Shown one piece after another: positions 63 through 32,210 of a stretch of DNA of 64,000 bases. Origin of the DNA: Dehalococcoidia bacterium (GTDB lineage: Bacteria; Chloroflexota; Dehalococcoidia; Bin125). The DNA lies in contig CBDBNA010000005.1 in NCBI GenBank assembly GCA_965207695.1, positions 121,144 to 185,143 of the forward strand, in the 5' to 3' direction. A program made the position numbers and the translations under genes. Under the pieces are notes generated by a model. It ran no database searches. It was not told the DNA's origin and saw nothing but the letters and a program-made list of their open reading frames with translations. The first letter of the stretch is position 1. Each line of letters begins with the position of its first letter.

Positions 63-590
63 TTGAGACGTGCCGAAGGGTCGTGGGGTTCCCGTCCGTC
101 ACCCCCACCCCTCTCCCCGCCCTGTACCATGTCCACGGGCGGACCCACCGCCCAATCCGCGCGAAAGGGCGCCCGCGTGACCACCGAGCCGAAGTCTCCG
201 CCGCCTCCCGCCGCGCTCGGGCATAACGACGCGGCCCTGCACGATCAGGTCGGCCGTCTCTCCTCGCAACTGACGGAGTTGCGCGAGGAGGTGGAGCGGC
301 TGTCCGAGCGCAGCGTCTACGCCACTGCCATCACGACCTTGGCTTCGCCAGACTATGAACTCCTGCGTGACATCCCGATCACCGTGGAGGAGGATGGGGA
401 CGAAACCAGCGTCAGTTGGTTCGAGATCGGTCTGATGGGTGTGGACGACACCCCGGACGGAGCCCTCATTTCGTTTGAGAACCGCTTACTTCGCCTCTTC
501 GACGATCTCAACGCGATGGCGGATGACAAGTTGGGCCCACTCCCGTCTCGCTGGAAGCGGACGCTCGCGACGGTCATCCGTCACGCATGA
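63..590 (+). CDS. HicB-like antitoxin (UPF0150/HicB RNase-H-like fold); true start possibly at M at nt 129
   Basis: C-terminal segment PITVEEDGDETSVSWFEIGLMGVDDTPDGAL fits the HicB_lk_antitox pattern (..EeDGgyvA.vPeLpGc.sqGdTleEA). Its stop overlaps the next ORF's ATG by 4 bp (ATGA), which is typical TA coupling. Sits in a lower-GC patch. Confidence 0.45.
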   Translation: MRRAEGSWGSRPSPPPLSPPCTMSTGGPTAQSARKGARVTTEPKSPPPPAALGHNDAALHDQVGRLSSQLTELREEVERLSERSVYATAITTLASPDYELLRDIPITVEEDGDETSVSWFEIGLMGVDDTPDGALISFENRLLRLFDDLNAMADDKLGPLPSRWKRTLATVIRHA

Positions 591-883: not shown

Positions 884-1065
884 TCGGACGCCTGCGCCAG
901 ATGGACGAGGCCGGCCGGGTGCTACCCTTGGGACATGATGCAGTCGCTCAACGACGTGGCGCGCCCCCTCGCAACACGGGATGACCTGCACGCGGCCGAG
1001 ATCCGCGTCATCGGCGCCGTCGCGGCCATGCTCACCGTCGCGGTCCTGATTCTCAGCTTCACTTA

Positions 1066-1100
1066 GCCCCCGAGCCTGGCGTCGGGGGCGCTGCGCGTCC
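1066..1100. repeat. Short variant of the dispersed hairpin repeat (family A): CCCCCGAgcctggcGTCGGGGGCGCTGCGCGTCC
   Basis: Shares the GTCGGGGGCGCTtCGCGTC tail with the copies at 1216, 1356, 8360 and 7643. Contains an inverted repeat CCCCCGA/TCGGGGG. Confidence 0.4.
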
Positions 1101-1257: not shown

Positions 1258-1355
1258 TGCTAGACTGCTGGCGTGGGCGCGGGAGAGTTGCTAGCTCCCC
1301 GCGGGGCTGAGCCCTCTACGCTGGGGCCTCGTGGCAGCGATTGCCCACGCCAGCG

Positions 1356-1397
1356 CCCCCGACGATACATCGAGAGCCGTCGGGGGCGCTTCGCGTC
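1356..1397. repeat. Dispersed hairpin repeat family A, copy 2 (CCCCCGACGATACATCGAGAGCCGTCGGGGGCGCTTCGCGTC), about 30 bp upstream of the uvrD start
   Basis: Direct repeat of 1216-1257 (about 93% identity), lying 140 bp downstream of it. Confidence 0.8.
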
Positions 1398-1428
1398 CGA
1401 CCCCGACCGCCGCTGCTACGCTCCCCCC

Positions 1429-3894
1429 ATGCCGACCTCGCAGCGGCCCGACCTCCCCACCCTCGACCTCGACGGCCTCAACCCCGCCCAGCGCGAGGCG
1501 GTGACCGGGCCCGCCGGCCCGCTGCTCATCCTGGCCGGACCGGGCTCGGGCAAGACGCGCGTCATTGCCCACCGCATCGCCTGGCTGGTGCGCGAAACCG
1601 GCGTGCCGCCCTGGCGCATCCTGGCCGTCACCTTCACCAACAAGGCCGCCCGCGAGATGCGCGCCCGCGTCGAGGCGCTGCTGCCCGGCGGCCCCGACGA
1701 CCTCGGCACGCGCGGCATGGGGCTGGGCACCTTCCACGCCGTCTGCGCCCGCATCCTGCGCGCCGACGGCGAGGCGGTCGGCGTGCCGCGCGGCTTCGTC
1801 ATCTACGACGACGACGACCAGATCGCCATCGTCAAGCGCGCCCTCGAAGAGCTGTCGGTCGATACCCGCTACCACCCGGCCCGCCGCGTGCTGAGCGCCA
1901 TCTCGCGCGCCAAGAACGAGGGGCTGAGCGCCGAGACGGTGAGCGCCCACGCCGGCGACTACCGCCAGGAGGTCGTGGCGCGCTGCTTCGAGCGCTACCA
2001 GGCGGCGCTGCGCGAGAACGCGGCGGTCGATTTCGACGACCTGCTGGGCCGCACGCTGGAGCTGTTTGCGACGCAGCCGCCCGTCGCCGCGCGTTACCAG
2101 GAGCGGTTCGCGCACGTCCTGGTCGACGAGTTCCAGGACACGAACATCGTGCAGTACCGGCTGGCCCGCGCCTGGGCGGCCGGCCACGGCAGCCTGACCG
2201 TAGTGGGCGACCCCGACCAGTCGATCTACTCCTGGCGCGCCGCCGACATCCGCAACATCCTGCACTTCGCGCGCGACTTCCCCGACGCCACGACCGTGCG
2301 GCTCGAGCAGAACTACCGCTCGACCAAGGCCATCTGCCGCGCCGCCGACGCCGTCATCGACAAGGCCGCCGAGCGCATCCACAAGGAGCTTTGGACCGAC
2401 AACGCCGAGGGCGACCGCCCCGTCGTCTTCGAGGCCTACACCGAGGCCGAGGAGGCCGACGAGGTGGCCCGCGAGATCGAGTCGCGCATGGCCGCCGGCG
2501 ACTGGCGCCCCGGCGACGTCGCCGTCTGCTACCGCACCAACGCCCAGTCGCGCGTCGTCGAGGAGGCCTTCCTGCGCCGGGGCATCCCCTACCGGCTGAT
2601 CGGCGGCACGCGCTTCTACGCCCGCCGCGAGATCAAGGACCTGCTCGCCCTCTGCCGGCTGACCCTCAACCCGCACGACGACGTCGCCTTCGAGCGCATG
2701 GTCAACGTGCCGGGGCGCGGCGTCGGGCAGCGCACCCGCGCCCTGCTGCTCGACTGGGCCGACCGCCGCGACGCCTCGCTCTCGCAGGCCGCGCTGGCCG
2801 CCGTCCGCGGCACTGCATCACCCGACGGGGGCGACCCCCCGAGCGTCACGGCCCGCGCCCGCGCCGCCCTGCAGTCGTTCCTGGCCGTCGTGCAGGGCGC
2901 CCGCGAGCGCGCCGCGACGGGCACCGTCGAGCAGGTCATCGACCAGTTGCTGCGCGAGACCGGCTACCAGGACTACCTCTACCGCACCTTCGACGACGGC
3001 GAGGACCGCTGGAACAACGTGCAGGAGTTGCGCACCGTCGCGGCCAACTACGACGCCCTCGCCCCGGCGCCGAGCGAGGCCCTGCCCGACGCCCCCGGCG
3101 ACGAGGCCGCCGCGCCCGCCTCGGCGCTCGCCACCTTCCTGGCCGACGTCGCCCTCGTCGCCGACGTCGACAACCTCGAGGAGGGCCCGGCCGCCGTCAC
3201 GCTCATCACCCTGCACGCCGCCAAGGGCCTCGAGTTCCCCGCCGTCTTCCTCATCGGCATGGAGGAGAACATCCTGCCGCACGTGCGCTCCTTCGACGAC
3301 CCGTCGGCGCTCGAGGAGGAGCGCCGGCTCTGCTACGTGGGCATGACCCGCGCCCAGCGCTGGCTGTACTGCGGCTACGCCTTCCGCCGCGCGCTGGCCG
3401 GGCGGGCCGGGCACAACCCGCCCTCGCGCTACCTGGCCGACCTGCCGCCCGACGCGATCGACCGCCGCGGCCGCGCCGGCTCGTCGGCCCCCGGCCCGCT
3501 CAGCCCCGACGTGCGGCCGGCCCGCAACCGCTGGCTCACCTGGGACGACGCCGACTCGGCCCCGCCCGACCCGCGCGCCCGCGCCCGCCCCGCCGCCCCG
3601 CGCGCCCGTCCCGACCCCGACCGCTGGGACGGCGTCGACCCCGACCCCGACGCCCCACCCGCCCGCCGCCGCGTCCGCGAGGAGCCCGCCCCCTACGCCG
3701 CCGCGCCGCCGCCGCCCTCCCCCGCCGAGGCCCCCCTGCACCCCGGCGAGCGCGTCACGCATCGGGCCTTCGGACCCGGCGTCGTCGTGGCCGTCAAGTC
3801 CTCCGGCCGCGCCGACACCGAGATCACCGTCGCCTTCGACGGGGCGGGGATCAAGAAGCTGCTGCTGTCGCTCGCGCCGCTGGAGCGGGGGTAG
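1429..3894 (+). CDS. uvrD: ATP-dependent DNA helicase UvrD/PcrA (821 aa)
   Basis: Walker A GPGSGKT; helicase motifs (TFTNKAAREM, VLVDEFQDTN, VVGDPDQSIYSWRAA, QNYRST); C-terminal UvrD_C / Tudor-like tail. Start chosen at MPTSQRPDLPTLDLDGLNPAQREAV; the ORF-track N-terminal extension is upstream run-through. Confidence 0.9.
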   Translation: MPTSQRPDLPTLDLDGLNPAQREAVTGPAGPLLILAGPGSGKTRVIAHRIAWLVRETGVPPWRILAVTFTNKAAREMRARVEALLPGGPDDLGTRGMGLGTFHAVCARILRADGEAVGVPRGFVIYDDDDQIAIVKRALEELSVDTRYHPARRVLSAISRAKNEGLSAETVSAHAGDYRQEVVARCFERYQAALRENAAVDFDDLLGRTLELFATQPPVAARYQERFAHVLVDEFQDTNIVQYRLARAWAAGHGSLTVVGDPDQSIYSWRAADIRNILHFARDFPDATTVRLEQNYRSTKAICRAADAVIDKAAERIHKELWTDNAEGDRPVVFEAYTEAEEADEVAREIESRMAAGDWRPGDVAVCYRTNAQSRVVEEAFLRRGIPYRLIGGTRFYARREIKDLLALCRLTLNPHDDVAFERMVNVPGRGVGQRTRALLLDWADRRDASLSQAALAAVRGTASPDGGDPPSVTARARAALQSFLAVVQGARERAATGTVEQVIDQLLRETGYQDYLYRTFDDGEDRWNNVQELRTVAANYDALAPAPSEALPDAPGDEAAAPASALATFLADVALVADVDNLEEGPAAVTLITLHAAKGLEFPAVFLIGMEENILPHVRSFDDPSALEEERRLCYVGMTRAQRWLYCGYAFRRALAGRAGHNPPSRYLADLPPDAIDRRGRAGSSAPGPLSPDVRPARNRWLTWDDADSAPPDPRARARPAAPRARPDPDRWDGVDPDPDAPPARRRVREEPAPYAAAPPPPSPAEAPLHPGERVTHRAFGPGVVVAVKSSGRADTEITVAFDGAGIKKLLLSLAPLERG

Positions 3895-4034
3895 GGGCGG
3901 GGCAGCGCCCCTGTGTAAGATACGAAACATCCGTTCTTAGCGTTTCGCGCGCTTATGGTACCTCGGCGGTTGCTAGGTCGTTGCTCGTTGATACCGTGAC
4001 TCTCCGTCTTCTGAACGTGAAGGAGAATTACCCG

Positions 4035-5780
4035 ATGGACCTCACGGAAGCCGCAGCGCTGCTCGACAAGATTGCCGAAGAGCAATGCCACCCATTCAAG
4101 ATCGCGTCCGAGTTCAGGAAGCGGGCCGCGATCCCCGCGGATGCGGTAGTCCGGACCGCAGCTGCCGCTCTGCAGTACGACCTCACTGAGTCGGGCGAAT
4201 CGAGACGCGAGACATACGGGCCATTCGCTCCGATGCTCCAGACCGAAGACTTCGTGACGCCGCCGTATACGTGGGACGTACAAGACGACGTGCTGAATGC
4301 GTGGCAGCAACTTGCGGAGCTCGTCCATTCGCCGGTGGTCGCCGCCCGCCTCCAGGACTTGCTCTGGGTCACGAGCTTCGGCGAAGCCCCACACGAACAC
4401 GCGCGTGCCGCGATCAACAACTACATCTCGGCGTCAGCATTGCCCCACTGCGATGGGCTGGAGGCATTCGACTGCCTCGACCGGGCGTTCGATCTGTCCC
4501 GCCAACTCAATGTCCCCGGGGTGGGGGAACGTATCAGGCAGCGAGCTGTCGAAGAGCTTGTAGCCGAGTACAACCGCCTTGAGGCCGACGCACGTCCGGG
4601 CGTGGTGATCCGCCTCCTCACACTGCTGGTCAGCCTGCCCGCGGCCGATCAGCCGGATGATCTGCGCGGACTCCTGGACCAGGCTCACGTGCTCTTCGCG
4701 GGCAACTACCCAGACAATCGAATCGCACTGTTCCAGTTGCAACAGCGGCTCGCCCGCGGCGATCAAGCGGAGATTGAGCGCCTTCAGCGGGAAAGCGTCG
4801 AACTCTGGATCCAATGGGCGGCGCAGCAAGAGAGCGGCTGGCTTCGATTGGATGCCTTGGGCAAGGCCCTGGAGATCGCGAACAGCACAAGAACCACCGC
4901 GGACATGCGTGAGCCCATCCGGCTCATGATGCAGCAGACCGATCCGAGCGACCTCTACACCGAGTCGGCGGAGGTATCGTTCGAACTCCCGGCGGACGAG
5001 GTCGAGCGACTCATCGCTCTGATAGTCGGTGACGACAGCGTCGGTCGTGCCCTCGACCGCCTCGGCGCTTGGTGGCCTCCAACAGGCGACCTCCAGGAAA
5101 CTTCAGCTGCTGTTGATGAGCAGATGGAGAAGCTTGTGTTCTGGCGTCTCATCCCTCAGGTCATCACCGATCCCACGGGACATCCGCTTCGCGTCGTCGA
5201 CACTGACGAGGCAAAGCGTGCACTGGCAATGGTGCAGCACGGTGCATTTGCTGCGCGAGTCCATGCAGTGATCACAAGAAGAGCGCTCCTGGCGATTCAG
5301 GAAGCGTACGCCCCAGGCCAGCGAGAGCTTCATGAGGCCTTTCAGACCGCTCTAATCAACTCGCAACAGGCCGAGGTGTTTGCCAGGACGCTCCAACACT
5401 ACTGGGCCGGCCGGTTTGACGAGGCCATACACATCGCGCTGCCCCGCATCGAAGCTGTCCTTCGGCAAGCTCTGCTGATGGCAGGCGGCATCGCCCGCAA
5501 GCAACCGCATGGGGGGCGCTCTGGGGGGGTAAAGGCCCTCGGAGAAGTCCTTCAGGCACTGTCCCGGTGGATGCCCGAGGAGATGCGTTTCCCTTTCCGT
5601 GTCCTCCTGACCGATGACCGTGGCCTCAACTTACGAAATCGGTACATGCATGGTTTGCCTCCGCAGGACGAAAGCCAGCAAGCAACCGAGCAAGACGCCT
5701 CCCTCGTAATCCACATCATCACCCATCTTCGGCTGCTTAGTCTCCAACCATCAACGGAACCACCAGCGGACGACGACTAG
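4035..5780 (+). CDS. Hypothetical 581-aa all-alpha protein with a C-terminal HEPN-like domain (motif LRNRYMHG = R-x4-H-G); candidate RNase-type defense or abortive-infection protein
   Basis: Strong SD AAGGAG 9 bp upstream of the ATG. About 60% GC, clearly below the flanking genes. C-terminal ...IHIALPRIEAVLRQALLMAGG...LRNRYMHG fits the HEPN Rx4-6H signature. No similarity to housekeeping families that I recognise. Confidence 0.55.
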   Translation: MDLTEAAALLDKIAEEQCHPFKIASEFRKRAAIPADAVVRTAAAALQYDLTESGESRRETYGPFAPMLQTEDFVTPPYTWDVQDDVLNAWQQLAELVHSPVVAARLQDLLWVTSFGEAPHEHARAAINNYISASALPHCDGLEAFDCLDRAFDLSRQLNVPGVGERIRQRAVEELVAEYNRLEADARPGVVIRLLTLLVSLPAADQPDDLRGLLDQAHVLFAGNYPDNRIALFQLQQRLARGDQAEIERLQRESVELWIQWAAQQESGWLRLDALGKALEIANSTRTTADMREPIRLMMQQTDPSDLYTESAEVSFELPADEVERLIALIVGDDSVGRALDRLGAWWPPTGDLQETSAAVDEQMEKLVFWRLIPQVITDPTGHPLRVVDTDEAKRALAMVQHGAFAARVHAVITRRALLAIQEAYAPGQRELHEAFQTALINSQQAEVFARTLQHYWAGRFDEAIHIALPRIEAVLRQALLMAGGIARKQPHGGRSGGVKALGEVLQALSRWMPEEMRFPFRVLLTDDRGLNLRNRYMHGLPPQDESQQATEQDASLVIHIITHLRLLSLQPSTEPPADDD

Positions 5781-5785
5781 CCCCA

Positions 5786-5807
5786 CCCCCAACAGCACGG
5801 GGGCTTT
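5786..5807 (+). terminator. Possible intrinsic terminator (CCCCCaacagcacGGGGG followed by CTTT)
   Basis: A 5-bp GC stem immediately after the stop of the 4035-5780 gene, followed by a short T tract. Weak. Confidence 0.3.
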
Positions 5808-5874
5808 GAGTTGGCGCCGGTCCAGCGATTGTCCCCGCCTCGTATACTGCGCCGATGACAGCAAGGGGTGACCG

Positions 5875-6267
5875 ATGAGCAAGTGGAAGTGGGCCGCTGG
5901 GGCCATCGGCGTCATTGCGTTGGGCGCGTTCGCGGCGGCGTGGGCGCTCACCGAGGCAGACGTACTGCGCTGGGGCGCCACCGCCGCCCTGCACGACCGC
6001 ATTGAGGCCTTAGAGCGTCGGGCCGAGGCCGCGCCGAAGACGCCTGACTGGACCGTGCTCTCGCGCGAGGGGCCGGTGTTCCGCGTCGTCGGCGGCGCCC
6101 CCATCGTCGAAGCGTGCATCACCTACACGTCGCCGTCGGGCGTGCAAGAGCGCTGCCGCCTCATGGCGACGCGCGGCCCGGGCGGCGAAGCGGAGATGAT
6201 AGAAGACGTCGGCCCGTGCTGGGACCTGGCCCGCATCGGCGCCCCCCTGCCCGATTGCTGGCGCTGA
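5875..6267 (+). CDS. Hypothetical small secreted or membrane-anchored protein (130 aa)
   Basis: N-terminal hydrophobic segment WAAGAIGVIALGAFAAAWAL. RBS-like AAGGGG upstream. Lies inside the lower-GC island. Confidence 0.4.
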   Translation: MSKWKWAAGAIGVIALGAFAAAWALTEADVLRWGATAALHDRIEALERRAEAAPKTPDWTVLSREGPVFRVVGGAPIVEACITYTSPSGVQERCRLMATRGPGGEAEMIEDVGPCWDLARIGAPLPDCWR

Positions 6268-6273
6268 CCACAC

Positions 6274-6339
6274 CTACCCGGACATCCGCGGCGACGTGTG
6301 CATCTCCCTGCCCGCCCGCGGGCCCGCCGGCGACGGCAG
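6274..6339. repeat. 66-bp direct repeat B1 (CTACCCGGACATCCGCGGCGACGTGTGCATCTCCCTGCCCGCCCGCGGGCCCGCCGGCGACGGCAG)
   Basis: About 85% identical to 7578-7643. Together the two copies bracket the 6406-7575 gene. Confidence 0.8.
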
Positions 6340-6405
6340 TTCCGGGGACACCCGTCAGTTGGCACGCCGAGCTAGCATCGTGCGAGCATCCTTGAGCGGA
6401 TCCTG

Positions 6406-7575
6406 ATGACGAACAACCTGACCCTCTTCGACGACTTCGAGCGGACGAACACGTGCGAGAAGCCCTCAGCCCAGGAGATGGTCGATTTCATCAATGAGTC
6501 GGCTTGGCCATCGAGCGAGCGGGTCCGCGCCGTCTTCGAGCGGTGGTTCTCGCACTACCCCGACGATCGGAAGAAGAACCTACGTCGCCGCTTTCGCGAA
6601 GGTGCTCACCAGCACGACTCCGCGGCCTTCGAGCTCATGCTGCACGAACTCCTGCGCCGCCTGGATTTCGCGGTGGTCGTGGAGCCGGAACTCCGAGAGG
6701 GTCACGGAAGGCCGGACTTCGCGATCACGGACCGGCGTGGGCGCGCTTCGTACATCGAGGCGACCGTTGCGGAGTATACGGGTATGCGCCTCGGAGATCC
6801 GCTTCAGAACGAAGTCTTCGATACGATCAATGAGATACGTCCGCCGGACGGGATCGCATTGAGGGCAGACCCTCGCGGCGCGTTGGAGCAGGCCCCATCC
6901 CGCACGAGAGTCCAGGACACCGTCCGGGAGTGGCTGGAGGGGATCGATCCGGCACGCATCATCGACGGGGCGCCGGTCGAGAACCGGCGCCTCAAGTTCC
7001 GATGTGGGAAATGGAGGTTGAAGCTGACTGCGATTCCCTGGAAACGGGGCAACGCTCACCAGTTGATCCAGGCCGGGCCAATGCCTTTCAGCACCGACAT
7101 CGACGACGTCGCTTACTTGAAGAGCAAGCTACTTACCAAGGCACGCAAGTATCGCAACTTGGACAAGCCGTTGATCGTCGCCCTGAGCATCCCCGGCTCG
7201 CCCGTGGATGCCGACGGCCAGCTAGCGACGCTCTTCGGCGAGCGGGATGACTGCCACTCAATCGGGGGCGCTCACACGGTCGTGACGGGCACGGCTCGGA
7301 CTCCGGACTCAGCCTGGCTCGACAACGACGGGCCGCGTTCCCGGGGGCTCCATGGCGTCACGTTCTTTGGTGACTGGATGCAGTCCGTCGCCGGCTCTCA
7401 CGCCTGCACGTACATCAATCCCTTCATCGACGCCAAGATTCCCGACGAACTGCTTCAGTTAGGCAGTGCCCGGGTCGAAGACGGAACAGTCGTCTATGAG
7501 GAAGGCCCCCGCCTCGGGGAAATCCTCCGACTCCCCAAGGACTGGCCCGGCCCTCCGGGGATGCCGTCGGACTAG
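6406..7575 (+). CDS. Hypothetical 389-aa protein, possibly with a PD-(D/E)xK-like nuclease core; flanked by 66-bp direct repeats
   Basis: Lower GC in its 5' half. Segment AFELMLHELLRRLDFAVVVEPELREGHGRPDFAITD...ASYIEATV resembles an E...PD...ExK-type core with an atypical last position (T instead of K). No family that I recognise. Confidence 0.5.
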   Translation: MTNNLTLFDDFERTNTCEKPSAQEMVDFINESAWPSSERVRAVFERWFSHYPDDRKKNLRRRFREGAHQHDSAAFELMLHELLRRLDFAVVVEPELREGHGRPDFAITDRRGRASYIEATVAEYTGMRLGDPLQNEVFDTINEIRPPDGIALRADPRGALEQAPSRTRVQDTVREWLEGIDPARIIDGAPVENRRLKFRCGKWRLKLTAIPWKRGNAHQLIQAGPMPFSTDIDDVAYLKSKLLTKARKYRNLDKPLIVALSIPGSPVDADGQLATLFGERDDCHSIGGAHTVVTGTARTPDSAWLDNDGPRSRGLHGVTFFGDWMQSVAGSHACTYINPFIDAKIPDELLQLGSARVEDGTVVYEEGPRLGEILRLPKDWPGPPGMPSD

Positions 7576-7577
7576 CC

Positions 7578-7666
7578 CTACCCGAACATCCGCGGCGCCG
7601 TGTGCATCTCCCCGCCCGTCCACGGGTCGGCCAGCGACGGCAGCGCCGGGGGCGCTTCGCGTCCCC
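7578..7666. repeat. Direct repeat B2 (66 bp) fused to a partial family-A tail (CGCCGGGGGCGCTTCGCGTCCCCC)
   Basis: 7578-7643 matches 6274-6339. 7643-7666 matches the 3' part of the family-A repeat, so the A and B families appear to be related. Confidence 0.75.
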
Positions 7667-7704
7667 CACCCCCGCCCCTGCTACCCTCCACCCGAGGAGG
7701 CCCC

Positions 7705-8160
7705 ATGCCCACGTTCTCCGTCAACGACGACGCCCCCGACTGGCAACGCGACCACACCCGCCGCTACCTCGACTCGAACGGCGCCGACGGGCACGACTGG
7801 ATCGCGCCCAACGGCGACGGCCCCTACCCCACCCTGCTGCTGCTGACCGTCGGCCGGCGCAGCGGCGCCGAGCGCACGCTGCCCCTGATCTACGGCGATT
7901 ACGACGGCGCCTACGTGATCATCGCCTCGAAGGGCGGCGCGCCGGCCCACCCCTCCTGGTACGTCAACCTGGCCGCCAACCCCGAGGTCTGGGTGCAGGT
8001 GCGCGACCGCCGCACCGCCGCCACGGCCCGCACCGCCTCGGGCACCGAGCGCGCCGCCCTCTGGAAGCAGCTCGCCACCATCTACCCGCCCTACGACGAG
8101 TACCAGGAGCGCGCCAACCCGCGCGAGATCCCGGTCGTCGTGCTCGACCCGCACGACTAG
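7705..8160 (+). CDS. Deazaflavin (F420)-dependent nitroreductase/quinone reductase family protein (Ddn-like, PF04075)
   Basis: PTLLLLTVGRRSGAERTLPLIYGDYDGAYVIIASKGGAPAHPSWYVNLAANPEVWVQV is the characteristic family signature. RBS GAGGAGG upstream. Confidence 0.8.
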   Translation: MPTFSVNDDAPDWQRDHTRRYLDSNGADGHDWIAPNGDGPYPTLLLLTVGRRSGAERTLPLIYGDYDGAYVIIASKGGAPAHPSWYVNLAANPEVWVQVRDRRTAATARTASGTERAALWKQLATIYPPYDEYQERANPREIPVVVLDPHD

Positions 8161-8359
8161 GGCCTCAGGCGCCTCCCCATCCATCTCGATGGAGCGGAGG
8201 CCGTCGGGTGAAGTCGGCCGCCGGCCGCGCGTCCGGGGTGCTATACTGAGCGAGCCGGAGCCGGGAGGCGTCAACTCCCGCCGCCGTGCATCCAGGGGTC
8301 GCCATTTGGCCCCATGGTGCGTATAGGCGGCACTCCGCACACGGAGCGGCCCCGACCCG

Positions 8360-8401
8360 CCCCCGACGATACACCGTGGACCGTCGGGGGCGCTTCGCGT
8401 C
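8360..8401. repeat. Dispersed hairpin repeat family A, copy 3 (CCCCCGACGATACACCGTGGACCGTCGGGGGCGCTTCGCGTC)
   Basis: Matches 1216-1257 and 1356-1397. Sits 16 bp upstream of the 8418 start codon. Confidence 0.8.
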
Positions 8402-8417
8402 CGCGCCCGGAGTTCCC

Positions 8418-8828
8418 ATGCCCTCCTCCGTCATCCCCTCGTTCCGCTACGCCGACGCGCCCCGCATGATCGACTTCCTCTGCGACGCCTTCGGCTTCGA
8501 GCGCAACCTCGTCGTGCCCGACAGCGATGGCGGCGTCGCGCACGCGCAGCTGACCCTGGGCGACGGCATGATCATGCTCGGCTCGGCCCGCGACGACGAC
8601 TTCGGCGCGCTGGTCGTGACGGCCGCCGCGGCCGGCGCGCTGACCAGCTCCCCCTACGTGATCGTGCCCGACGTCGATGCGCACTGCGCGCGGGCCCGCG
8701 CCGCCGGGGCGGAGGTCGTGATGGAGCCGGCCGACCAGGACTACGGCGGCCGCCTCTACGCCGCCCGCGACCCCGAGGGGCAGCTCTGGAACTTCGGCTC
8801 CTACGACCCCTGGGCGGCGCCGGAGTAA
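8418..8828 (+). CDS. VOC family protein (glyoxalase/bleomycin-resistance fold)
   Basis: FRYADAPRMIDFLCDAFGFERNLVVPDSDGGVAHAQLTLGDGMIMLG...VVMEPADQDYGGRLYAARDPEGQLWNF is typical of VOC / PhnB-like proteins. Confidence 0.75.
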   Translation: MPSSVIPSFRYADAPRMIDFLCDAFGFERNLVVPDSDGGVAHAQLTLGDGMIMLGSARDDDFGALVVTAAAAGALTSSPYVIVPDVDAHCARARAAGAEVVMEPADQDYGGRLYAARDPEGQLWNFGSYDPWAAPE

Positions 8829-10412: not shown

Positions 10413-10463
10413 CATGGCCGCAGGTCGCAGAGCGACGTCCCAGGAAGGGATCCGACGTGCCCG

Positions 10464-11108
10464 ATGAACCGCAGTCCGCTCAGCCGCCTCCTCCACATCC
10501 GCCGCCTTCGTCGAACCCCGGCAGGATTCTCAGGGACGCTGGACAACCCCGGCGTCAGGCGAATAACGAACTCCGCTGACGACGCCGTGGACCCCGCTGA
10601 TGATCCGGGCGTCCCCCCGCCCCACGCTGCGCAGTCATTCGATCCCGAGAACTACCCGAGCCTCGACTTGGCGTTCCGGCAAGGCGTGCGCTCGTACTCG
10701 CAAGTCGCCGCCCGACTCACGGCCGTCCACGGACGGATCGATGCCCTTCAGTGGGCTGTGATATGGCTGACGGTCGCGTTCCCGATCGGTGTGCGGGCAG
10801 CCGACGGGGCCGCGAGCTTCACATCGGGATTCGCCATCGCTGCGTTCGCGTTGGCGGGAGTCACAGTCTTCCTGGGGCTGGCAGCCCGCGCATGGTCTGG
10901 AATGACGCTGGTCAACCCCGCCCGTCTCTACGCGCACTGGCTCCACCTGCCCGAAAAGGAGTTCAAGCTCCGCAGTCTCTATTGGGCGGGCCAGCACTTC
11001 GAAGAGAACTCCCGGGCCGTGAACCGGAAGTCGTTGCTTGCGTCGCTCATGGTCCTACTCCTGCTCGTCGAAGTCGGGCTGTTCGTCGCCTGGTTCGCGA
11101 GCACGTAG
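10464..11108 (+). CDS. Hypothetical membrane protein (start could instead be the in-frame ATG at 10413)
   Basis: Three to four predicted TM segments (WAVIWLTVAFPIGV, FAIAAFALAGVTVFLGLAA, LLASLMVLLLLVEVGLFVAWF). Lower GC (about 60%). The long 5' extension in the ORF track overlaps the trkH 5' end and is unlikely to be real. Confidence 0.45.
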   Translation: MNRSPLSRLLHIRRLRRTPAGFSGTLDNPGVRRITNSADDAVDPADDPGVPPPHAAQSFDPENYPSLDLAFRQGVRSYSQVAARLTAVHGRIDALQWAVIWLTVAFPIGVRAADGAASFTSGFAIAAFALAGVTVFLGLAARAWSGMTLVNPARLYAHWLHLPEKEFKLRSLYWAGQHFEENSRAVNRKSLLASLMVLLLLVEVGLFVAWFAST

Positions 11109-11139
11109 AGGCCGCTCCGGGCCTCCTTCCAGGCGCCTT

Positions 11140-11238
11140 GGGAGCCCCTTGGGAGCCCCTTCCGGACCCCTTCTGCACCCCTTCTGCACCCCTTCCGGAC
11201 CCCTTCTGCACCCCTTCTGCACCCCTTCCGGACCCCTT
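11140..11238. repeat. Perfect 11-bp tandem repeat array, 9 units (GGGAGCCCCTT x2; then [CCGGACCCCTT CTGCACCCCTT CTGCACCCCTT] x2 + CCGGACCCCTT), giving a 33-bp higher-order period
   Basis: Read directly from the sequence. Intergenic: 32 bp after the stop at 11108 and about 100 bp before the 11338 start. Confidence 0.95.
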
Positions 11239-11337: not shown

Positions 11338-12012
11338 ATGAGAGGCCCTCGTGTGTCCACTTCCATCGACGACCAACTACCCGATCCGCTGCCCGTCCGC
11401 GCCCGCAAGTGGGGCGCCGGCCCCCGCGTCCAGGAGCGCCTGCGCTCCGTCGCCGACCTCCGTCGGCGCGGCCTCGGGCGAGCCGAGATCGCCGCGAAAC
11501 TCGGCGTCTCCCCACCGACGATCTCCCGCGACCTGGCCCGCGTCGACCTGATCGAGCAGCACCAAGAGGCCGAGTTCGTGCACACGCAGCAGATCGAGTG
11601 CCTACTCTCCCTGCGCGAGCTCACGCTGGTCTGCTGGCACGTCATCTCCCGCTACCGCTACGACCCGGACCGCATCGCCGACATGGCCGCCGTCGCGAGC
11701 GTCGTCGTCGCCGCGCAGCGCGAGGCCGGGCGCATTCTCGCCGGCTCCCGAGACCCCAACGCCGGCGACTCCGACGGCGAGAATCGGGAGGACCAAGACA
11801 TAACCGAGGGAGAAACCCTCCTGATGAGCCTTCTCAACATCCAGAGACCCGATTATGGAGAGGGCGAGATCGCCGATCTGCGTCGGGCCGTCGACGCCGA
11901 TTTCTCCCGTTACCTGAAACCCTCCCGGCTCGCCGTCATCCAGCGCGGCCTGGCCCTCGTTCAACGCGACGCCCCCGACGCGCTGACGAACGCCGCCGCG
12001 CCCGACGACTGA
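11338..12012 (+). CDS. Hypothetical HTH-domain protein (sigma-70 region-4 / small-terminase-like helix-turn-helix), 224 aa
   Basis: LRRRGLGRAEIAAKLGVSPPTISRDLARV is a classic HTH. GC drops to about 52% in the 3' half. Bracketed by tandem-repeat arrays. Confidence 0.5.
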   Translation: MRGPRVSTSIDDQLPDPLPVRARKWGAGPRVQERLRSVADLRRRGLGRAEIAAKLGVSPPTISRDLARVDLIEQHQEAEFVHTQQIECLLSLRELTLVCWHVISRYRYDPDRIADMAAVASVVVAAQREAGRILAGSRDPNAGDSDGENREDQDITEGETLLMSLLNIQRPDYGEGEIADLRRAVDADFSRYLKPSRLAVIQRGLALVQRDAPDALTNAAAPDD

Positions 12013-29103: not shown

Positions 29104-29754
29104 CTAGTCCGACCAGCGATCGAAGCGCAGCACCTCGTCGAGCGGCTTGCGCGTGACGGGGCCGAAGCGCCCCAGCGGATAGCCGACCGGGATCAGGCAG
29201 TAGGGCGCCATCGTCTCGGGCAGGCGCAGCGCCGCGGCGGCGGCCCCGTGGTCGATCAGCCCCAGGGTGGTCGGAGCAGCGCCAAGGCCCAGCGACCGCG
29301 CCGCCAGCAGCACGTTCTGCACGGCGGGCCAGACCGCGACGTTGCCGGCCGCGTGTTGCTCGGGCGTCGGCGGCTCCCCGAAGTCGTGGCAGGCCACGAT
29401 CAGCGCCGGCAATTCGTGCATGTGCTCCATCTGCCACAGGACCGCGTCGAGCATGCGACGCCGCTTCGCCGGCGACTGATGCGGCACCTCTTCGAGGTTG
29501 TCCAGCCGCGGCCCGATGTACGCCTCGACGCCGCGGCGGTTGAGGTCGGCCAACTCACGCTTCACCGCCGGGTCGCGAACGATGATCCAGCGCACGCCCT
29601 GCTGGTTCGAGCCGGTGGGCGCCTGGTTGCCGGCATCGACCAGCTTGCGCAGCAACTCCTCCGGCACTTCCCGGGTGTCCAGCCGGCGCATCGCGCGGCA
29701 GTTGTAGATCACGTCGAAGACGCCCATCTGCTCGCTTGACTCCGTCATCGTCAT
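29104..29754 (-). CDS. Nitroreductase family protein
   Basis: CRAMRRLDTREVPEELLRKLVDAGNQAPTGSNQQGVRWIIV is the nitroreductase fold signature. Confidence 0.75.
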   Translation of the reverse strand: MTMTESSEQMGVFDVIYNCRAMRRLDTREVPEELLRKLVDAGNQAPTGSNQQGVRWIIVRDPAVKRELADLNRRGVEAYIGPRLDNLEEVPHQSPAKRRRMLDAVLWQMEHMHELPALIVACHDFGEPPTPEQHAAGNVAVWPAVQNVLLAARSLGLGAAPTTLGLIDHGAAAAALRLPETMAPYCLIPVGYPLGRFGPVTRKPLDEVLRFDRWSD

Positions 29755-32210
29755 CGCCCTCCTCCATGGGATCGTCGCAGCCGTCGCAGCGCCATGCGCC
29801 CGGTCAGGGCCGCCAGCGGCGCGGCCACCGCCACGACGACCAGCAGCCACGCCGGGATGCCGCCTTCATCCTGCGCCTCGCCGCCGTTGTCCGCCACTCC
29901 GTTGGGCGGCTTCTCGTCGTCCTCCAGCGATTCGAGCAGCGGCGTCACGGCATCGCTGCCCGGCGAGGGGACGGCGTTCACGACCCAGCCGTCGTCGGTC
30001 AGGGCGATGGATCGGCCCTCCTCCGGCAGCGGGACCGACGCCGTCCCGTAAGCGACCCCACCGACGATGCGCCCGTGCGGGTCGAGCAGGACCACGCTGT
30101 CCCCGCCGTTCGCGAGGCCGTTCCCGATCCGCCCGTCCACCAGCACGACGTCCACGGCGCCGCCGGCGGCTTCCGGGGAGCCGCCGATCGCCACGTACGC
30201 GCCCGGCGCGACGACGCCGCCCGGCAGCCGATCCTCGGCGGCGGCGTCGGCGATCATCCAGCCGGTCAGGTCGATCGAATCCGCGCCGTAGTTGTGGACC
30301 TCCACCCACTCGAAGGCGGCGTCGCGCGAACCCTCGCCGGCGCTGGCGAAGATCTCCGTGATGCGCAGCGGCGGCAGGGGCCCCGTGGGGGCGCGCTCGC
30401 CATCCTGCGATGAGGCCTCATCGTCAGGCAGCATCACTTCGTCCGTCGCGGCGGCATCGGCGGTCGCCGGCGCTTCATCCTGCGCCGCGGCATCTTCTTC
30501 GACTCGCTCGTCGGGCGGCGCCGGATCCTCCTCGGCCGTCGGTTGCGGCGTCACATCGCCGCTGCCGGGCGACGGCGCGACGTTGATTACCCAGCCCGCA
30601 TCGCTCAGCGCGATCGACCGGCCGACCTCCGGCAGCGGGACCGACGCCGACCCGTAGGCGACCTGATCGACGAGCCGCCCCCACGGGTCGCGCAGCGTGA
30701 CGCTGTCGCCGCGGTTGGCGAGGCCGTTGCCGATCCGCCCGTCCTCCAGCACGATGTCCGCCGCACCATCGGCCGCCTCGGCGGAGCCGCCGATCGTCAC
30801 GTACGCGCCCGGAGCGACCACGCCCCCCGGCAGCACATCCATCGCGACGTTGTCTGTGATGGTCCAGCCCGTGAGGTCGATCGGATCCGTACCCGCGTTG
30901 TGGACCTCCACCCACTCGAAGGCGGCGTCGCGCGACCCCTCGCCGGCGCTGGCGAAGATCTCCGTGATGCGCAGGAATGGCGGCGGACCCGGTGGGGCTT
31001 GCTGTTCTTCCTGGGCCGGCGGTTCTTCTTCAGACGCCTCCTGCGACGGCTGCGACGCTTCCGCGGGGGACGGCGCAGGCGGCGTCACATCGCCGCTGCC
31101 GGGTGATGGCGCGCCGTTGAGCACCCAGCCGTCGCCCCGTAGTGCGATCGAGCGGCCCGCCTCCGGCAGCGGGACCGATCCCTGGCCGTAGGCGACCTCG
31201 TCGACCAGCCGCCCCTCTGGGTCGCGCAGCGTCACGACGTCGCCCGTGTTGGCGAGGCCGTTGCCGATCCGCCCGTCCTCCAGAACGACGTCCGCCGCGC
31301 CTTCGGCCGCCTCAGCGGAGCCGCCGATCGTCAGGTACCCGTCCGGCGGGACCACGCCGCCCGGCAGCACGTCCACCGCGATGTTGTCGGCGAGCGTCCA
31401 GCCCGTCAGGTCGATCGGCTCGGAACCAGCGTTGCGGACCTCGACCCACTCGAAGGCCGCGTCGCGCGCGCCCTCGCCGGCATTGGGCAGAATCTCCGTG
31501 ATGCGCAGCGGCGACGGGGAGATCTGCTCTTCGGCGGGGGCATCCGAGGCCTCCGGCGCGGGAGCGGCCTCCGCAGGGGGAGGCGCCGGCGCCGCCGTGT
31601 GCGGCGCGCCGGGAGAGGGCGTTGCGGCCATCCAGCCCCCATCGCCCCGCGACAGCGTCTGCCCGAGAGGCGGCGGAGTGACATCCGAGATCGTCTGGTC
31701 GCCGCCCCACGACACGCCGTCGACGGTCGCGCCGGCCGGGTCGATCAGCAACACGCGGTCGCCGCCGTTGGCCAGCCCGTTGCCGATCCGCCCGTCCTCC
31801 ACAACGACCAGCGTCACGCCCGCCGGGAGCACCGCCGCCAGCTCCGCCCCGCCGCCAACGATCAGGTACGCACCGGGCGCCAGCGTCGTCGCCGGGATGG
31901 AATCCTCGGCGCGGTTGTCGGCGAGCCGCCAGCCCGTCAAGTCGACCGGGGCAGCGCCTGCGTTGTGGATCTCCACCCACTCGAAGGCGGCCTCCTGCTG
32001 ACCGCGACCGGCCTCGGCGCGGACCTCGGTGATCGCGACGCCGCGGGGCGCCTGCGCGAGCGCCGTGACCGGCGTCGCCCCGCTCGCGGCGCTCGCGGCC
32101 CAGGCCGGGCCCAGCAGCGCCGCGACGGCAGCCGCCAGCACGCCACGGGAACCAAGTACGTACCAACTCCTGCTGGGCCAGCGCGGCACGATGACTCCTT
32201 CGCCCGGCAT
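29751..32210 (-). CDS. Secreted, membrane-anchored protein with four tandem lamin-tail-domain (LTD) repeats
   Basis: Signal peptide; four repeats of about 130 aa, each with FEWVE(I/V)HNAG..P(I/V)DLTGW...GRIGNGLAN...V.L.DP.G; C-terminal TM segment plus a basic tail. The underlying DNA is a roughly 390-bp tandem repeat x4. Confidence 0.7.
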   Translation of the reverse strand: MPGEGVIVPRWPSRSWYVLGSRGVLAAAVAALLGPAWAASAASGATPVTALAQAPRGVAITEVRAEAGRGQQEAAFEWVEIHNAGAAPVDLTGWRLADNRAEDSIPATTLAPGAYLIVGGGAELAAVLPAGVTLVVVEDGRIGNGLANGGDRVLLIDPAGATVDGVSWGGDQTISDVTPPPLGQTLSRGDGGWMAATPSPGAPHTAAPAPPPAEAAPAPEASDAPAEEQISPSPLRITEILPNAGEGARDAAFEWVEVRNAGSEPIDLTGWTLADNIAVDVLPGGVVPPDGYLTIGGSAEAAEGAADVVLEDGRIGNGLANTGDVVTLRDPEGRLVDEVAYGQGSVPLPEAGRSIALRGDGWVLNGAPSPGSGDVTPPAPSPAEASQPSQEASEEEPPAQEEQQAPPGPPPFLRITEIFASAGEGSRDAAFEWVEVHNAGTDPIDLTGWTITDNVAMDVLPGGVVAPGAYVTIGGSAEAADGAADIVLEDGRIGNGLANRGDSVTLRDPWGRLVDQVAYGSASVPLPEVGRSIALSDAGWVINVAPSPGSGDVTPQPTAEEDPAPPDERVEEDAAAQDEAPATADAAATDEVMLPDDEASSQDGERAPTGPLPPLRITEIFASAGEGSRDAAFEWVEVHNYGADSIDLTGWMIADAAAEDRLPGGVVAPGAYVAIGGSPEAAGGAVDVVLVDGRIGNGLANGGDSVVLLDPHGRIVGGVAYGTASVPLPEEGRSIALTDDGWVVNAVPSPGSDAVTPLLESLEDDEKPPNGVADNGGEAQDEGGIPAWLLVVVAVAAPLAALTGRMALRRLRRSHGGGR

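What the first reader, a model, noticed from the sequence alone, without database searches (positions are those of the whole stretch)
6274..7643. 66-bp direct repeats (about 85% identical) exactly bracketing the 6406-7575 gene
CTACCCGGACATCCGCGGCGACGTGTGCATCTCCCTGCCCGCCCGCGGGCCCGCCGGCGACGGCAG (6274-6339) recurs as CTACCCGAACATCCGCGGCGCCGTGTGCATCTCCCCGCCCGTCCACGGGTCGGCCAGCGACGGCAG (7578-7643). A gene flanked by same-orientation repeats looks like a cassette inserted or duplicated by recombination between repeat copies, or a mobile miniature element carrying a passenger gene. The second copy continues into the family-A repeat tail, linking the two repeat families.
Basis: seen in the sequence. 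Interest (0 to 1): 0.6.

Follow-up and report, generated by a model that had tools for sequence, protein, structure and literature searches.

The report
Leftover methyltransferase gene ends flanking a defence gene
The two 66-base repeats are not a mobile element: they are dead stubs of the last 22 codons of a DNA methyltransferase gene, left on either side of a nuclease-like gene by rearrangements in a variable defence island of a high-GC Dehalococcoidia bacterium. This is an ordinary kind of genomic scar.

Summary
The repeat is real: 58/66 bases identical, 84% over 82 nt, and only these two copies in the window. It is not an autonomous repeat family. On the minus strand, both copies are the last 22-25 codons plus stop codon of a 465-481-aa N6/N4 DNA methyltransferase-Mrr fusion gene. 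That gene is intact in five related Dehalococcoidia loci, and its C-terminal motif (LPxLADPxTG) is conserved in distant homologues. The window has no intact copy.

The repeats lie in a variable island between pcrA/uvrD and an F420-dependent reductase gene. The island holds a PDC-S39-like gene, a 130-aa gene, and the 389-aa gene, which is of foreign composition, has a PD-(D/E)xK fold and is under purifying selection.

Related loci show:
- stub-gene-stub (L001, L002);
- the gene next to an intact methyltransferase with no upstream stub (L007, L003);
- a site with one stub and no gene (L008).

Stub end points differ (59, 66, 74 and 81 nt) and fall at microhomologies. One junction lies in the loop of a family-A hairpin.

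The mobile-element and repeat-family reading is not supported. One thing is unexplained: stubs of this gene and of pcrA/uvrD are all short, about 35-85 nt. Interest is low.

The parts
1273..3894 (+). pcrA/uvrD-type helicase gene, the conserved left flank of the variable island. 1273 is the first possible start codon in the open frame; alignment to the L002 homologue puts the real start near 1430. Stop codon TAG at 3892-3894.
   Evidence: Pfam UvrD-helicase, UvrD_C and PcrA_UvrD_tudor. 93-98% nt identity to L001, L002 and L007. Stop position.
3954..5780 (+). DUF7380/DUF4209 gene, a candidate defence gene (PADLOC PDC-S39-like) in a lower-GC module. The start codon at about 3954 was not verified.
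   Evidence: Pfam. PADLOC PDC-S39, E = 3.7e-32. GC 0.62. 79.6% nt identity to L008.
5875..6267 (+). 130-aa gene of unknown function. Its stop codon lies 6 nt before the upstream methyltransferase stub.
   Evidence: ORF. No Pfam, NCBIfam or PADLOC hit. Homologues in L008 (64% aa) and L001 (51% aa), each followed by a stub.
6274..6347 (-). Upstream repeat copy: a decayed stub of the last 24 or so codons plus stop of the N6_N4 methyltransferase-Mrr gene. CTA at 6274-6276 is the reverse complement of the TAG stop.
   Evidence: blastn to MTase nt 1374-1446, 90.4%. Minus-strand translation SPELPSPAGPRAGREMHTSPRMSG* against intact ...LPSLADPWTGGEMHTSPRMFG*. Homology ends at about nt 74.
6348..6405 (+). 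Native upstream region of the 389-aa gene. In L007 the same sequence directly follows the pcrA/uvrD stop codon.
   Evidence: Junction sequences. Alignment of upstream copies.
6406..7575 (+). 389-aa gene between the repeats: predicted PD-(D/E)xK-fold protein from a rare family found in defence islands.
7578..7654 (-). Downstream repeat copy: a nearly undecayed stub of the last 22-25 codons plus stop of the same methyltransferase gene. Clear homology runs to 7643; 7644-7654 overlaps the family-A half hairpin through the shared run CCGGG.
   Evidence: blastn to MTase nt 1369-1446, 94.9%. Translation ...LPSLADPWTGGEMHTAPRMFG*. End point.
7644..7664 (+). 3' half of a family-A hairpin repeat, the right-hand deletion junction. 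L007 and L008 carry the complete hairpin at the same place upstream of the F420 gene.
7705..8160 (+). F420H2-dependent quinone reductase-family gene, the conserved right flank of the island.
   Evidence: Pfam PF04075 and TIGR00026. 96-97% nt identity to L001, L002 and L008.

Best explanation
Shown: both repeat copies are non-functional 3'-terminal stubs of one gene family, read on the minus strand. That gene encodes a 465-481-aa N6/N4 DNA methyltransferase fused to an Mrr-type nuclease domain. In relatives the intact gene lies tail to tail with the 389-aa gene, with the two stop codons 2 nt apart. The window keeps about 74 nt (upstream copy) and 66-77 nt (downstream copy) of the gene and nothing else of it. 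The locus is a variable defence island between pcrA/uvrD and an F420-reductase gene, and gene modules differ between otherwise 96-98% identical relatives.

Inferred: the 130-aa gene and the 389-aa gene each once abutted a copy of this methyltransferase.
- Upstream stub. The methyltransferase sequence about 74 nt from its stop was joined, at a GGGG microhomology, to the 389 gene's own upstream region. In L007 that region follows the pcrA/uvrD stop. The most economical route is that a segment made of the 389 gene plus the methyltransferase 3' end entered by a single crossover in the shared methyltransferase end. That would duplicate the end. Two tandem modules followed by a deletion would give the same product.
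- Downstream stub. A roughly 2-kb deletion removed the methyltransferase body and the adjacent sequence up to the loop of a family-A hairpin in front of the F420 gene.

The repeats themselves need have no activity. At most they persist because they carry the 3' flank of the convergent genes.
For: - In L003, L004, L005, L006 and L007 a minus-strand open frame of 448-494 codons runs into the repeat and stops at its CTA.
- The product is N6_N4_Mtase + Mrr_cat by Pfam and MTase_II by PADLOC.
- blastn of the L007 gene matches only its last 73-78 nt in the window, at both repeat sites, and only 59-81 nt in L001, L002 and L008.
- tblastn finds no other part of the gene in the 64 kb.
- The tail motif LPxLADPxTG is conserved in homologues at 56-64% identity, so the unit is genuine coding sequence.
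- The upstream copy carries 7 substitutions against the consensus of the intact genes and other stubs; by my reading of the codons, 6 change the amino acid, including W to R and F to S. The downstream copy is almost like the intact gene.
- Homology end points differ between copies: 59, 66, 74 and 81 nt.
- Junctions: pcrA stop joined to the 389 upstream region in L007; the hairpin in front of the F420 gene is complete in L007 and L008 but halved in the window; the 113 nt after the L008 stub match L007 432-319.
- Synteny maps.
Against: - No locus with the predicted intermediate (130-aa gene, stub, 389 gene, intact methyltransferase) was found, so the order of events is inferred.
- No locus shows the 130-aa gene beside an intact methyltransferase.
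- Stub lengths cluster at 59-81 nt instead of being spread along the 1.45-kb gene, which plain random deletion does not predict.
- Only about a dozen related loci were available, and the source genome itself was not found in the collections.
Confidence: 0.87

Rival explanations
1. The stubs are retained under selection because they work. With only 2-6 nt between the convergent stop codons, the terminator or 3' UTR of the 130-aa and 389-aa genes must lie inside the methyltransferase 3' end. Only rearrangements that keep about 60 nt survive, and deletion bias trims the rest. This adds to the stub origin rather than replacing it.
For: Every methyltransferase stub keeps at least 59 nt and none keeps more than about 81 nt, with different end points. 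Short 3' stubs of pcrA/uvrD (about 35-85 nt) also sit beside retained genes in L004, L006 and L011. The 389 gene is under purifying selection (dN/dS 0.23-0.36).
Against: No consistent hairpin is predicted: DNA and RNA folds differ between copies, z-scores run from -0.7 to +1.5, and only 1 pair covaries. There is no terminator-like site in the stubs and no Rfam match. The upstream stub is decaying at about the same rate as the neighbouring gene (91% against 92% between window and L001; my count). L008 was found with a pattern that requires at least 56 nt, so its length is biased by the search.
Confidence: 0.2
2. The repeats are attachment-site copies (attL/attR) of a small integrase-less cassette, in the manner of a cis-mobilizable element. 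A recombinase encoded elsewhere inserts the cassette into the 3' end of the methyltransferase gene, and the cassette carries a replacement gene end.
For: The repeats are direct copies of a gene's 3' end flanking foreign-composition DNA. L008 has a single copy and no gene. The block stub-gene-stub occurs behind three different upstream neighbours. A second stub family derives from the pcrA/uvrD 3' end.
Against: No integrase or recombinase was seen among the ORFs I scanned between about 60 and 16,400 of the window (roughly 6 kb upstream to 9 kb downstream of the repeats), nor among the genes called within about 6 kb in L001, L002, L003, L010 and L011. Stub boundaries are not constant: 59, 66, 74 and 81 nt. 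In the window neither copy restores an intact target gene. L007 and L011 carry the gene directly after a pcrA/uvrD end with no methyltransferase stub on the left. The L008 junction is not the simple one-copy product of recombination between the two window copies, because it carries 113 nt that the window lacks.
Confidence: 0.06
3. The locus is an integron-like cassette array, and the 66-nt unit after each ORF is an attC recombination site.
For: Two consecutive same-strand ORFs are each followed within 2-6 nt by the unit. Its ends show a weak inverted match, CCCGAAC ... GTTCCGGG, read directly from the sequence.
Against: There is no significant hairpin on either strand. No integrase gene lies nearby. 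The unit is in-frame coding sequence of a widespread methyltransferase family. Only two copies occur in the window.
Confidence: 0.01
4. A local tandem duplication of a promoter or leader sequence, with no link to any other gene.
For: Only two copies occur in the window.
Against: The unit is 91-98% identical to the 3' ends of intact methyltransferase genes at other loci and in other genomes. It lies downstream of stop codons. No promoter consensus was found.
Confidence: 0.01

Closest known systems
Gene remnants (pseudogene stubs) left at rearrangement junctions in restriction-modification and defence islands
   Same: Short non-functional pieces of a restriction-modification gene sit at the borders of variable gene modules between conserved core genes. 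Junctions fall at microhomologies. Gene content differs between close relatives.
   Different: Two stubs of the same gene end lie in direct orientation around one gene, and all stubs seen are short 3' ends (59-81 nt). This is a more regular pattern than random decay would give.
attL/attR duplications of a gene's 3' end made by integrative elements, and integrase-less cis-mobilizable elements derived from them (comparison from general knowledge, not tested against a paper here)
   Same: Direct repeats derived from the 3' end of a target gene flank foreign DNA. One relative carries a single copy.
   Different: No integrase was found. The repeat boundaries vary. The target gene is not restored in the window. 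One relative has the gene with no left-hand repeat.
Integron gene cassettes with attC sites
   Same: Same-strand ORFs are each followed by a similar unit of about 70 nt.
   Different: The unit is coding sequence of a convergent gene. It has no attC-type hairpin, no intI gene is nearby, and there are only two copies.
REP/BIME-type intergenic hairpin repeats
   Same: Short GC-rich repeats lie between genes. The neighbouring family-A unit does look like this type: a hairpin with five copies in the window.
   Different: The 66-nt unit is not palindromic, is not multi-copy, and is of coding origin.

Membership tests
3'-terminal relic of an N6_N4 methyltransferase-Mrr gene | Nucleotide homology to the 3' end of intact family members, in register with their stop codon | tested here: met
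   Window 7578-7654 matches MTase nt 1369-1446 at 94.9%, and 6274-6346 matches nt 1374-1446 at 90.4%. CTA at the start of each copy is the reverse complement of the TAG stop.
3'-terminal relic of an N6_N4 methyltransferase-Mrr gene | The matched segment is genuine coding sequence of the family, not an element the ORF merely runs into | tested here: met
   The tail motif ...LPxLADPxTG... is conserved in homologues at 56-64% identity from other lineages. Read directly from the sequence, every third codon position in the unit is G or C in that frame.
3'-terminal relic of an N6_N4 methyltransferase-Mrr gene | The rest of the gene is absent at the site | tested here: met
   tblastn of five intact proteins against the window finds only the two tails. 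Homology ends after 66-77 nt.
3'-terminal relic of an N6_N4 methyltransferase-Mrr gene | Signs of neutral decay | tested here: met
   Upstream copy: 7 substitutions against the consensus of the intact genes and other stubs; by my reading of the codons 6 are non-synonymous, including W to R and F to S. In L001 and L002 the stop codon is lost (CCA). The downstream copy is still like the intact gene, so it is recent.
Integron cassette / attC | Imperfect palindrome that folds as a hairpin in single-stranded DNA | tested here: not met
   DNA folds of both strands of three copies give z-scores of 0.07-0.82. The alignment fold has 1 covarying pair of 18.
Integron cassette / attC | Adjacent intI integrase and an array of cassettes | tested here: not met
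   The ORFs scanned between about 60 and 16,400 of the window are helicase, DUF4209, reductase, glyoxalase, TrkH, HTH, MazG, Lit and sigma-70. Only two units occur in 64 kb. Not every ORF in the window was scanned.
MITE / IS-derived miniature mobile element | Terminal inverted repeats and many dispersed copies | tested here: not met
   The repeats are direct. A scan of 185,579 species-representative genomes found 1-2 copies per genome in four Dehalococcoidia/Chloroflexota genomes, four of the five inside intact methyltransferase genes. The Streptomyces (L009) and metagenome (L012) hits are chance matches.
Integrative or cis-mobilizable element with att sites in a gene 3' end | The same crossover boundary in independent insertions | tested here: not met
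   End points are at 59, 66, about 74 and 81 nt.
Integrative or cis-mobilizable element with att sites in a gene 3' end | A cognate site-specific recombinase acting on the site | not testable with these tools
   None lies within about 6 kb in six loci. A recombinase encoded elsewhere in the genome cannot be excluded without the full genome and an experiment.
PD-T7-5 defence protein family (the 389-aa gene) | Full-length match to the family profile | tested here: not met
   Only residues 36-124 match profile positions 25-102 of 346, E = 6e-5, 20 bits. Homologues in L010 and L013 give similar partial hits. This is a lead, not membership.
PD-(D/E)xK nuclease fold (the 389-aa gene) | The fold, with conserved acidic and lysine residues | tested here: inconclusive

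The most novel reading that the evidence does not exclude
Short 3'-terminal stubs (about 35-85 nt) of two conserved genes, the methyltransferase and pcrA/uvrD, systematically mark module borders in this island across several Dehalococcoidia genomes. This could be the footprint of a specific cassette-exchange mechanism that uses conserved gene ends as anchors and duplicates them at each insertion. Candidates are integration anchored on short homology, or a recombinase encoded elsewhere that targets gene 3' ends. The alternative is that they are passive scars.
Probability: 0.12. Interest if true: 0.5.

Novelty: new member of a known kind. Interest (0 to 1): 0.18.

Why it matters
It matters mainly as a correction. 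A repeat pair that looks like the ends of a mobile cassette is a pair of pseudogene stubs. Reading the opposite strand and comparing relatives resolves it.

Three things of minor value remain:
- It documents a defence-island hotspot between pcrA/uvrD and an F420-reductase gene in uncultured high-GC Dehalococcoidia.
- It shows that a rare, uncharacterised PD-(D/E)xK-fold gene is kept under purifying selection after the adjacent methyltransferase was lost. That argues it is not a restriction enzyme dependent on that methyltransferase.
- It flags an unexplained regularity in stub length that could be tested on complete genomes.

Tried and rejected
- **Rfam at gathering thresholds on the whole window:** no match.
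- **DNA and RNA folding of single copies and of a 12-copy alignment:** no structure better than shuffled sequence and no consistent fold, so the attC, REP, terminator and small-RNA readings got no support.
- **Promoter and terminator consensus scan of 5700-8500:** nothing in the repeats.
- **Exact-protein look-ups** of the 389-aa and F420 proteins and of P0016: not on record.
- **Metagenome-wide pattern scan:** one hit, L012, unrelated by blastn and tblastn.
- **The Streptomyces hit L009** from the genome scan is also a chance match: only 31 nt at 81%.
- **tblastn of the 389-aa protein against phages:** no match.
- **The plus-strand frame YPNIRGDVCISPPVHG...** has all third positions G or C and is in frame with both the 389 gene and the F420 gene. 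I considered it as a coding or read-through frame and dropped it, because the minus-strand frame is the one continuous with long intact ORFs.
- **A sigma-54-like TGGCAC motif at about 6361:** I rejected it because the spacing to a GC element does not fit the consensus, judged by direct reading.
- **A tblastn extension of the downstream stub to 7697** (38-39 aa at 61-64% identity): I judged it insignificant beyond the 22-25 residues of clear homology.

Full report
**1. Observation**

The direct repeat exists where stated. The repeat finder gives 6266-6347 and 7570-7651, 82 nt at 84% identity. A 26-nt core with up to three mismatches occurs only at these two places in the 64-kb window, with none in 100 shuffles.

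The gene between them (6406-7575, 389 aa) has GC 0.63 and GC3 0.80. The neighbouring genes have GC 0.73-0.74 and GC3 0.96-0.99. The downstream copy begins 2 nt after the gene's TAG. The upstream copy begins 6 nt after the TGA of the preceding 130-aa gene and ends 66 nt before the ATG.

**2. What the unit is**

Homologues of the 389-aa protein are rare: 32 in 5.8 billion. Their contigs (L001, L002, L003) carry the same unit next to the gene.

A pattern scan of one genome per species found the unit in four Dehalococcoidia/Chloroflexota genomes, one or two copies each. In L003, L004, L005, L006 and L007 a minus-strand open frame of 448-494 codons runs into the unit and stops at its first three bases, because CTA is the reverse complement of TAG. 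The product is an N6_N4 DNA methyltransferase with a C-terminal Mrr-type nuclease domain by Pfam, and MTase_II by PADLOC.

blastn of the L007 gene against everything held shows full-length matches in those five loci. Elsewhere only its last 59-81 nt match: window 7578-7654 (94.9%), window 6274-6346 (90.4%), L001 twice, L002 twice and L008. tblastn finds no other part of the protein in the window.

The tail encoded by the unit is ...LPSLADPWTGGEMHTSPRMFG*. Its core, LPxLADPxTG, is conserved in homologues at only 56-64% identity. The unit is therefore real coding sequence of a widespread family, not an element that the ORF happens to run into.

The upstream window copy translates as SPELPSPAGPRAGREMHTSPRMSG*. 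It differs from the consensus of the intact genes and other stubs at seven positions, and by my reading of the codons six of these change the amino acid. The downstream copy is almost like the intact gene. Both repeats are dead 3' ends of this methyltransferase gene.

**3. Anatomy of the locus and its relatives**

The window reads, left to right:

| Coordinates | Feature |
|---|---|
| up to 3894 | pcrA/uvrD helicase |
| about 3954-5780 | DUF7380/DUF4209 gene (PADLOC PDC-S39) |
| 5875-6267 | 130-aa gene |
| 6274-6347 | upstream stub |
| 6406-7575 | 389-aa gene |
| 7578-7654 | downstream stub |
| 7644-7664 | half of a family-A hairpin |
| 7705-8160 | F420-dependent reductase gene |
| downstream | glyoxalase, then TrkH |

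The core flanks are 96-98% identical to L001, L002 and L008. The content between pcrA/uvrD and the F420 gene differs:

- **L001:** SLFN/AlbA_2 gene, 136-aa gene, stub, 389 gene, stub, DUF433-PIN pair.
- **L002:** helicase fragments, stub, 387-aa gene, stub, DUF433.
- **L007:** pcrA/uvrD joined directly to the 389 gene's upstream region with no left stub, then an intact methyltransferase, then a homologue of window 63-590, then the F420 gene.
- **L003:** DUF433, 387-aa gene, intact methyltransferase, MmeI-like gene.
- **L008:** the DUF4209 gene, the 130-aa gene, one stub of 59 nt, 113 nt that match L007 432-319, a complete family-A hairpin, then the F420 gene. It has no 389 gene.

This is a defence-island hotspot with modular content.

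**4. Junctions**

Homology to the intact gene ends after 59 nt in L008 and after 66 nt in the L002 downstream copy. In the window's downstream copy it ends after 66 nt, or about 77 nt if the shared run CCGGG is counted. It ends after about 74 nt in all three upstream copies, which share one junction, and after 81 nt in the L001 downstream copy.

- **Upstream junction.** It joins ...TTCCGGG of the methyltransferase to the sequence that in L007 follows the pcrA/uvrD stop (TAGGGGG...). The run of G is common to both.
- **Downstream junction in the window.** It lies in the loop of a family-A hairpin. L007 and L008 have GCGCCCCCGAGCCTAGCGCCGGGGGCGC there. The window has only the right arm, fused to ...GACGGCAG.

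**5. Mechanism**

Shown: the repeats are stubs, the island is modular, and the junctions are illegitimate and differ between lineages.

Inferred: each of the two plus-strand genes once lay tail to tail with a methyltransferase copy. The direct-repeat arrangement is most simply made in one of two ways. A segment holding the 389 gene plus the methyltransferase 3' end could enter by a single crossover in the shared gene end next to the 130-aa gene, which duplicates that end. Alternatively, two modules could lie in tandem, followed by deletion. Later a deletion of about 2 kb removed the remaining methyltransferase body up to the family-A hairpin.

L008 may be a site that never held the gene, or a secondary deletion. 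Its stub shares the changes G to C and A to G with the upstream copies of the window and L001, which hints at a secondary deletion. Two shared bases are weak evidence.

**6. The gene between the repeats**

Pairwise dN/dS is 0.23-0.36, so the gene is maintained where the methyltransferase is gone. That argues against a restriction enzyme that needs this methyltransferase for self-protection. The methyltransferase carries its own nuclease domain.

A 40%-identical homologue lies tail to tail with an MmeI-like gene (L010). Homologues at 29% identity sit on Acinetobacter, Pseudomonas and Mycolicibacterium plasmids. One lies directly after a CBASS operon that contains TRIP13 and NucC. There is no phage match.

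**7. Rivals**

- **attC or REP-type element.** There is no hairpin signal, no integrase among the scanned neighbours, and only two copies.
- **Miniature mobile element.** The repeats are direct and low in copy number, and four of the five copies found by the genome scan lie inside intact genes.
- **attL/attR of an integrase-less cassette.** The direct copies of a gene end and the one-copy site fit. The variable boundaries, the unrestored target gene, the L007 arrangement and the extra 113 nt in L008 do not.
- **Stubs retained as terminators.** This would explain the lower length limit but has no structural support.

**8. Unexplained**

All methyltransferase stubs are 59-81 nt. A second stub family has the same character: the last 35-85 nt or so of pcrA/uvrD, without the rest of the gene, occurs three times in L006 and once each in L004 and L011. 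Random deletion would not give only short 3' ends.

Later trimming at an existing junction lowers the number of independent events, and L008 was found with a pattern that requires at least 56 nt. Even so, the regularity stands and deserves a count on complete genomes.

**9. Verdict**

The repeats are pseudogene stubs of a methyltransferase gene, which is an ordinary kind of scar in a defence island. Interest is low. The most novel reading not excluded is a cassette-exchange process anchored on gene ends, to which I give about 0.12 probability.

Noticed in passing
window 1056-1100, 1214-1265, 1354-1405, 8358-8409; half copy at 7644-7664: Family-A repeat: a GC-rich hairpin (CGCCCCCGACG ... CGTCGGGGGCG) followed by CTTCGCGTCC. 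It looks REP-like. Copies sit upstream of pcrA/uvrD and on both sides of the F420 gene, so they flank the variable island. The half copy is a deletion junction.
   Followed up: partly
window 3810-3894; L006 2231-2311, 3092-3166, 6157-6213; L004 4738-4818; L011 4861-4929: A second family of gene-end stubs. The last 35-85 nt or so of the pcrA/uvrD helicase gene (the end of its tudor domain) recurs without the rest of the gene beside other island modules. In L011 one lies directly upstream of the 387-aa gene.
   Followed up: partly
L007 (whole locus) against window 63-590 and 10443-11108: Gene order differs between genomes. In L007 the homologue of window 63-590 lies between the methyltransferase and the F420 gene, and a homologue of window 10443-11108 lies upstream of pcrA/uvrD. 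This suggests that the helicase-plus-island segment has moved, possibly through the family-A repeats.
   Followed up: no
L007 3690-2516 (389-gene homologue): The 389-gene homologue is split into two frames in the genome that keeps the adjacent methyltransferase intact. It is intact in the window, L001 and L002, where the methyltransferase is gone, and both genes are intact in L003. This could be a real frameshift or a long-read assembly error.
   Followed up: no
L005 and L007 (same genome, CAXXCV010000001.1); L003-L007 methyltransferases: One genome carries two paralogous methyltransferase-Mrr genes (82.5% nt identity). Their N- and C-terminal parts are nearly identical and the central, target-recognition-like segment comes in two forms (FRNEIAWCYTGPG... 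and FQNEFVWYYSGGG...). This looks like specificity swapping by recombination.
   Followed up: no
L013 (Acinetobacter baumannii plasmid pWM98-2) 4004-5164: A 29%-identical full-length homologue of the 389-aa protein lies 4 nt after the NucC effector gene of a CBASS operon (cyclase, TRIP13, NucC) and next to a tyrosine recombinase gene.
   Followed up: partly
window 11101-11238: A tandem array of an 11-nt unit (CCCCTTCTGCA / CCCCTTCCGGA / CCCCTTGGGAG variants), about 12 copies, just upstream of an HTH-domain gene (11338-12012).
   Followed up: no
window 29751-32210 (minus strand): The 534-606-nt tandem repeats at 29939-32033 are four lamin-tail domains of one 819-aa protein.
   Followed up: partly
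L008 2740-2790 and L007 400-340: A conserved segment of about 113 nt upstream of the F420 gene (..GGGAAGGAAACCCGAAAAGTTCCCGCTCAGGCTTTTTCC..) contains a hairpin followed by a T run. It is present in L007 and L008 and deleted in the window. It may be a terminator or a small RNA.
   Followed up: no
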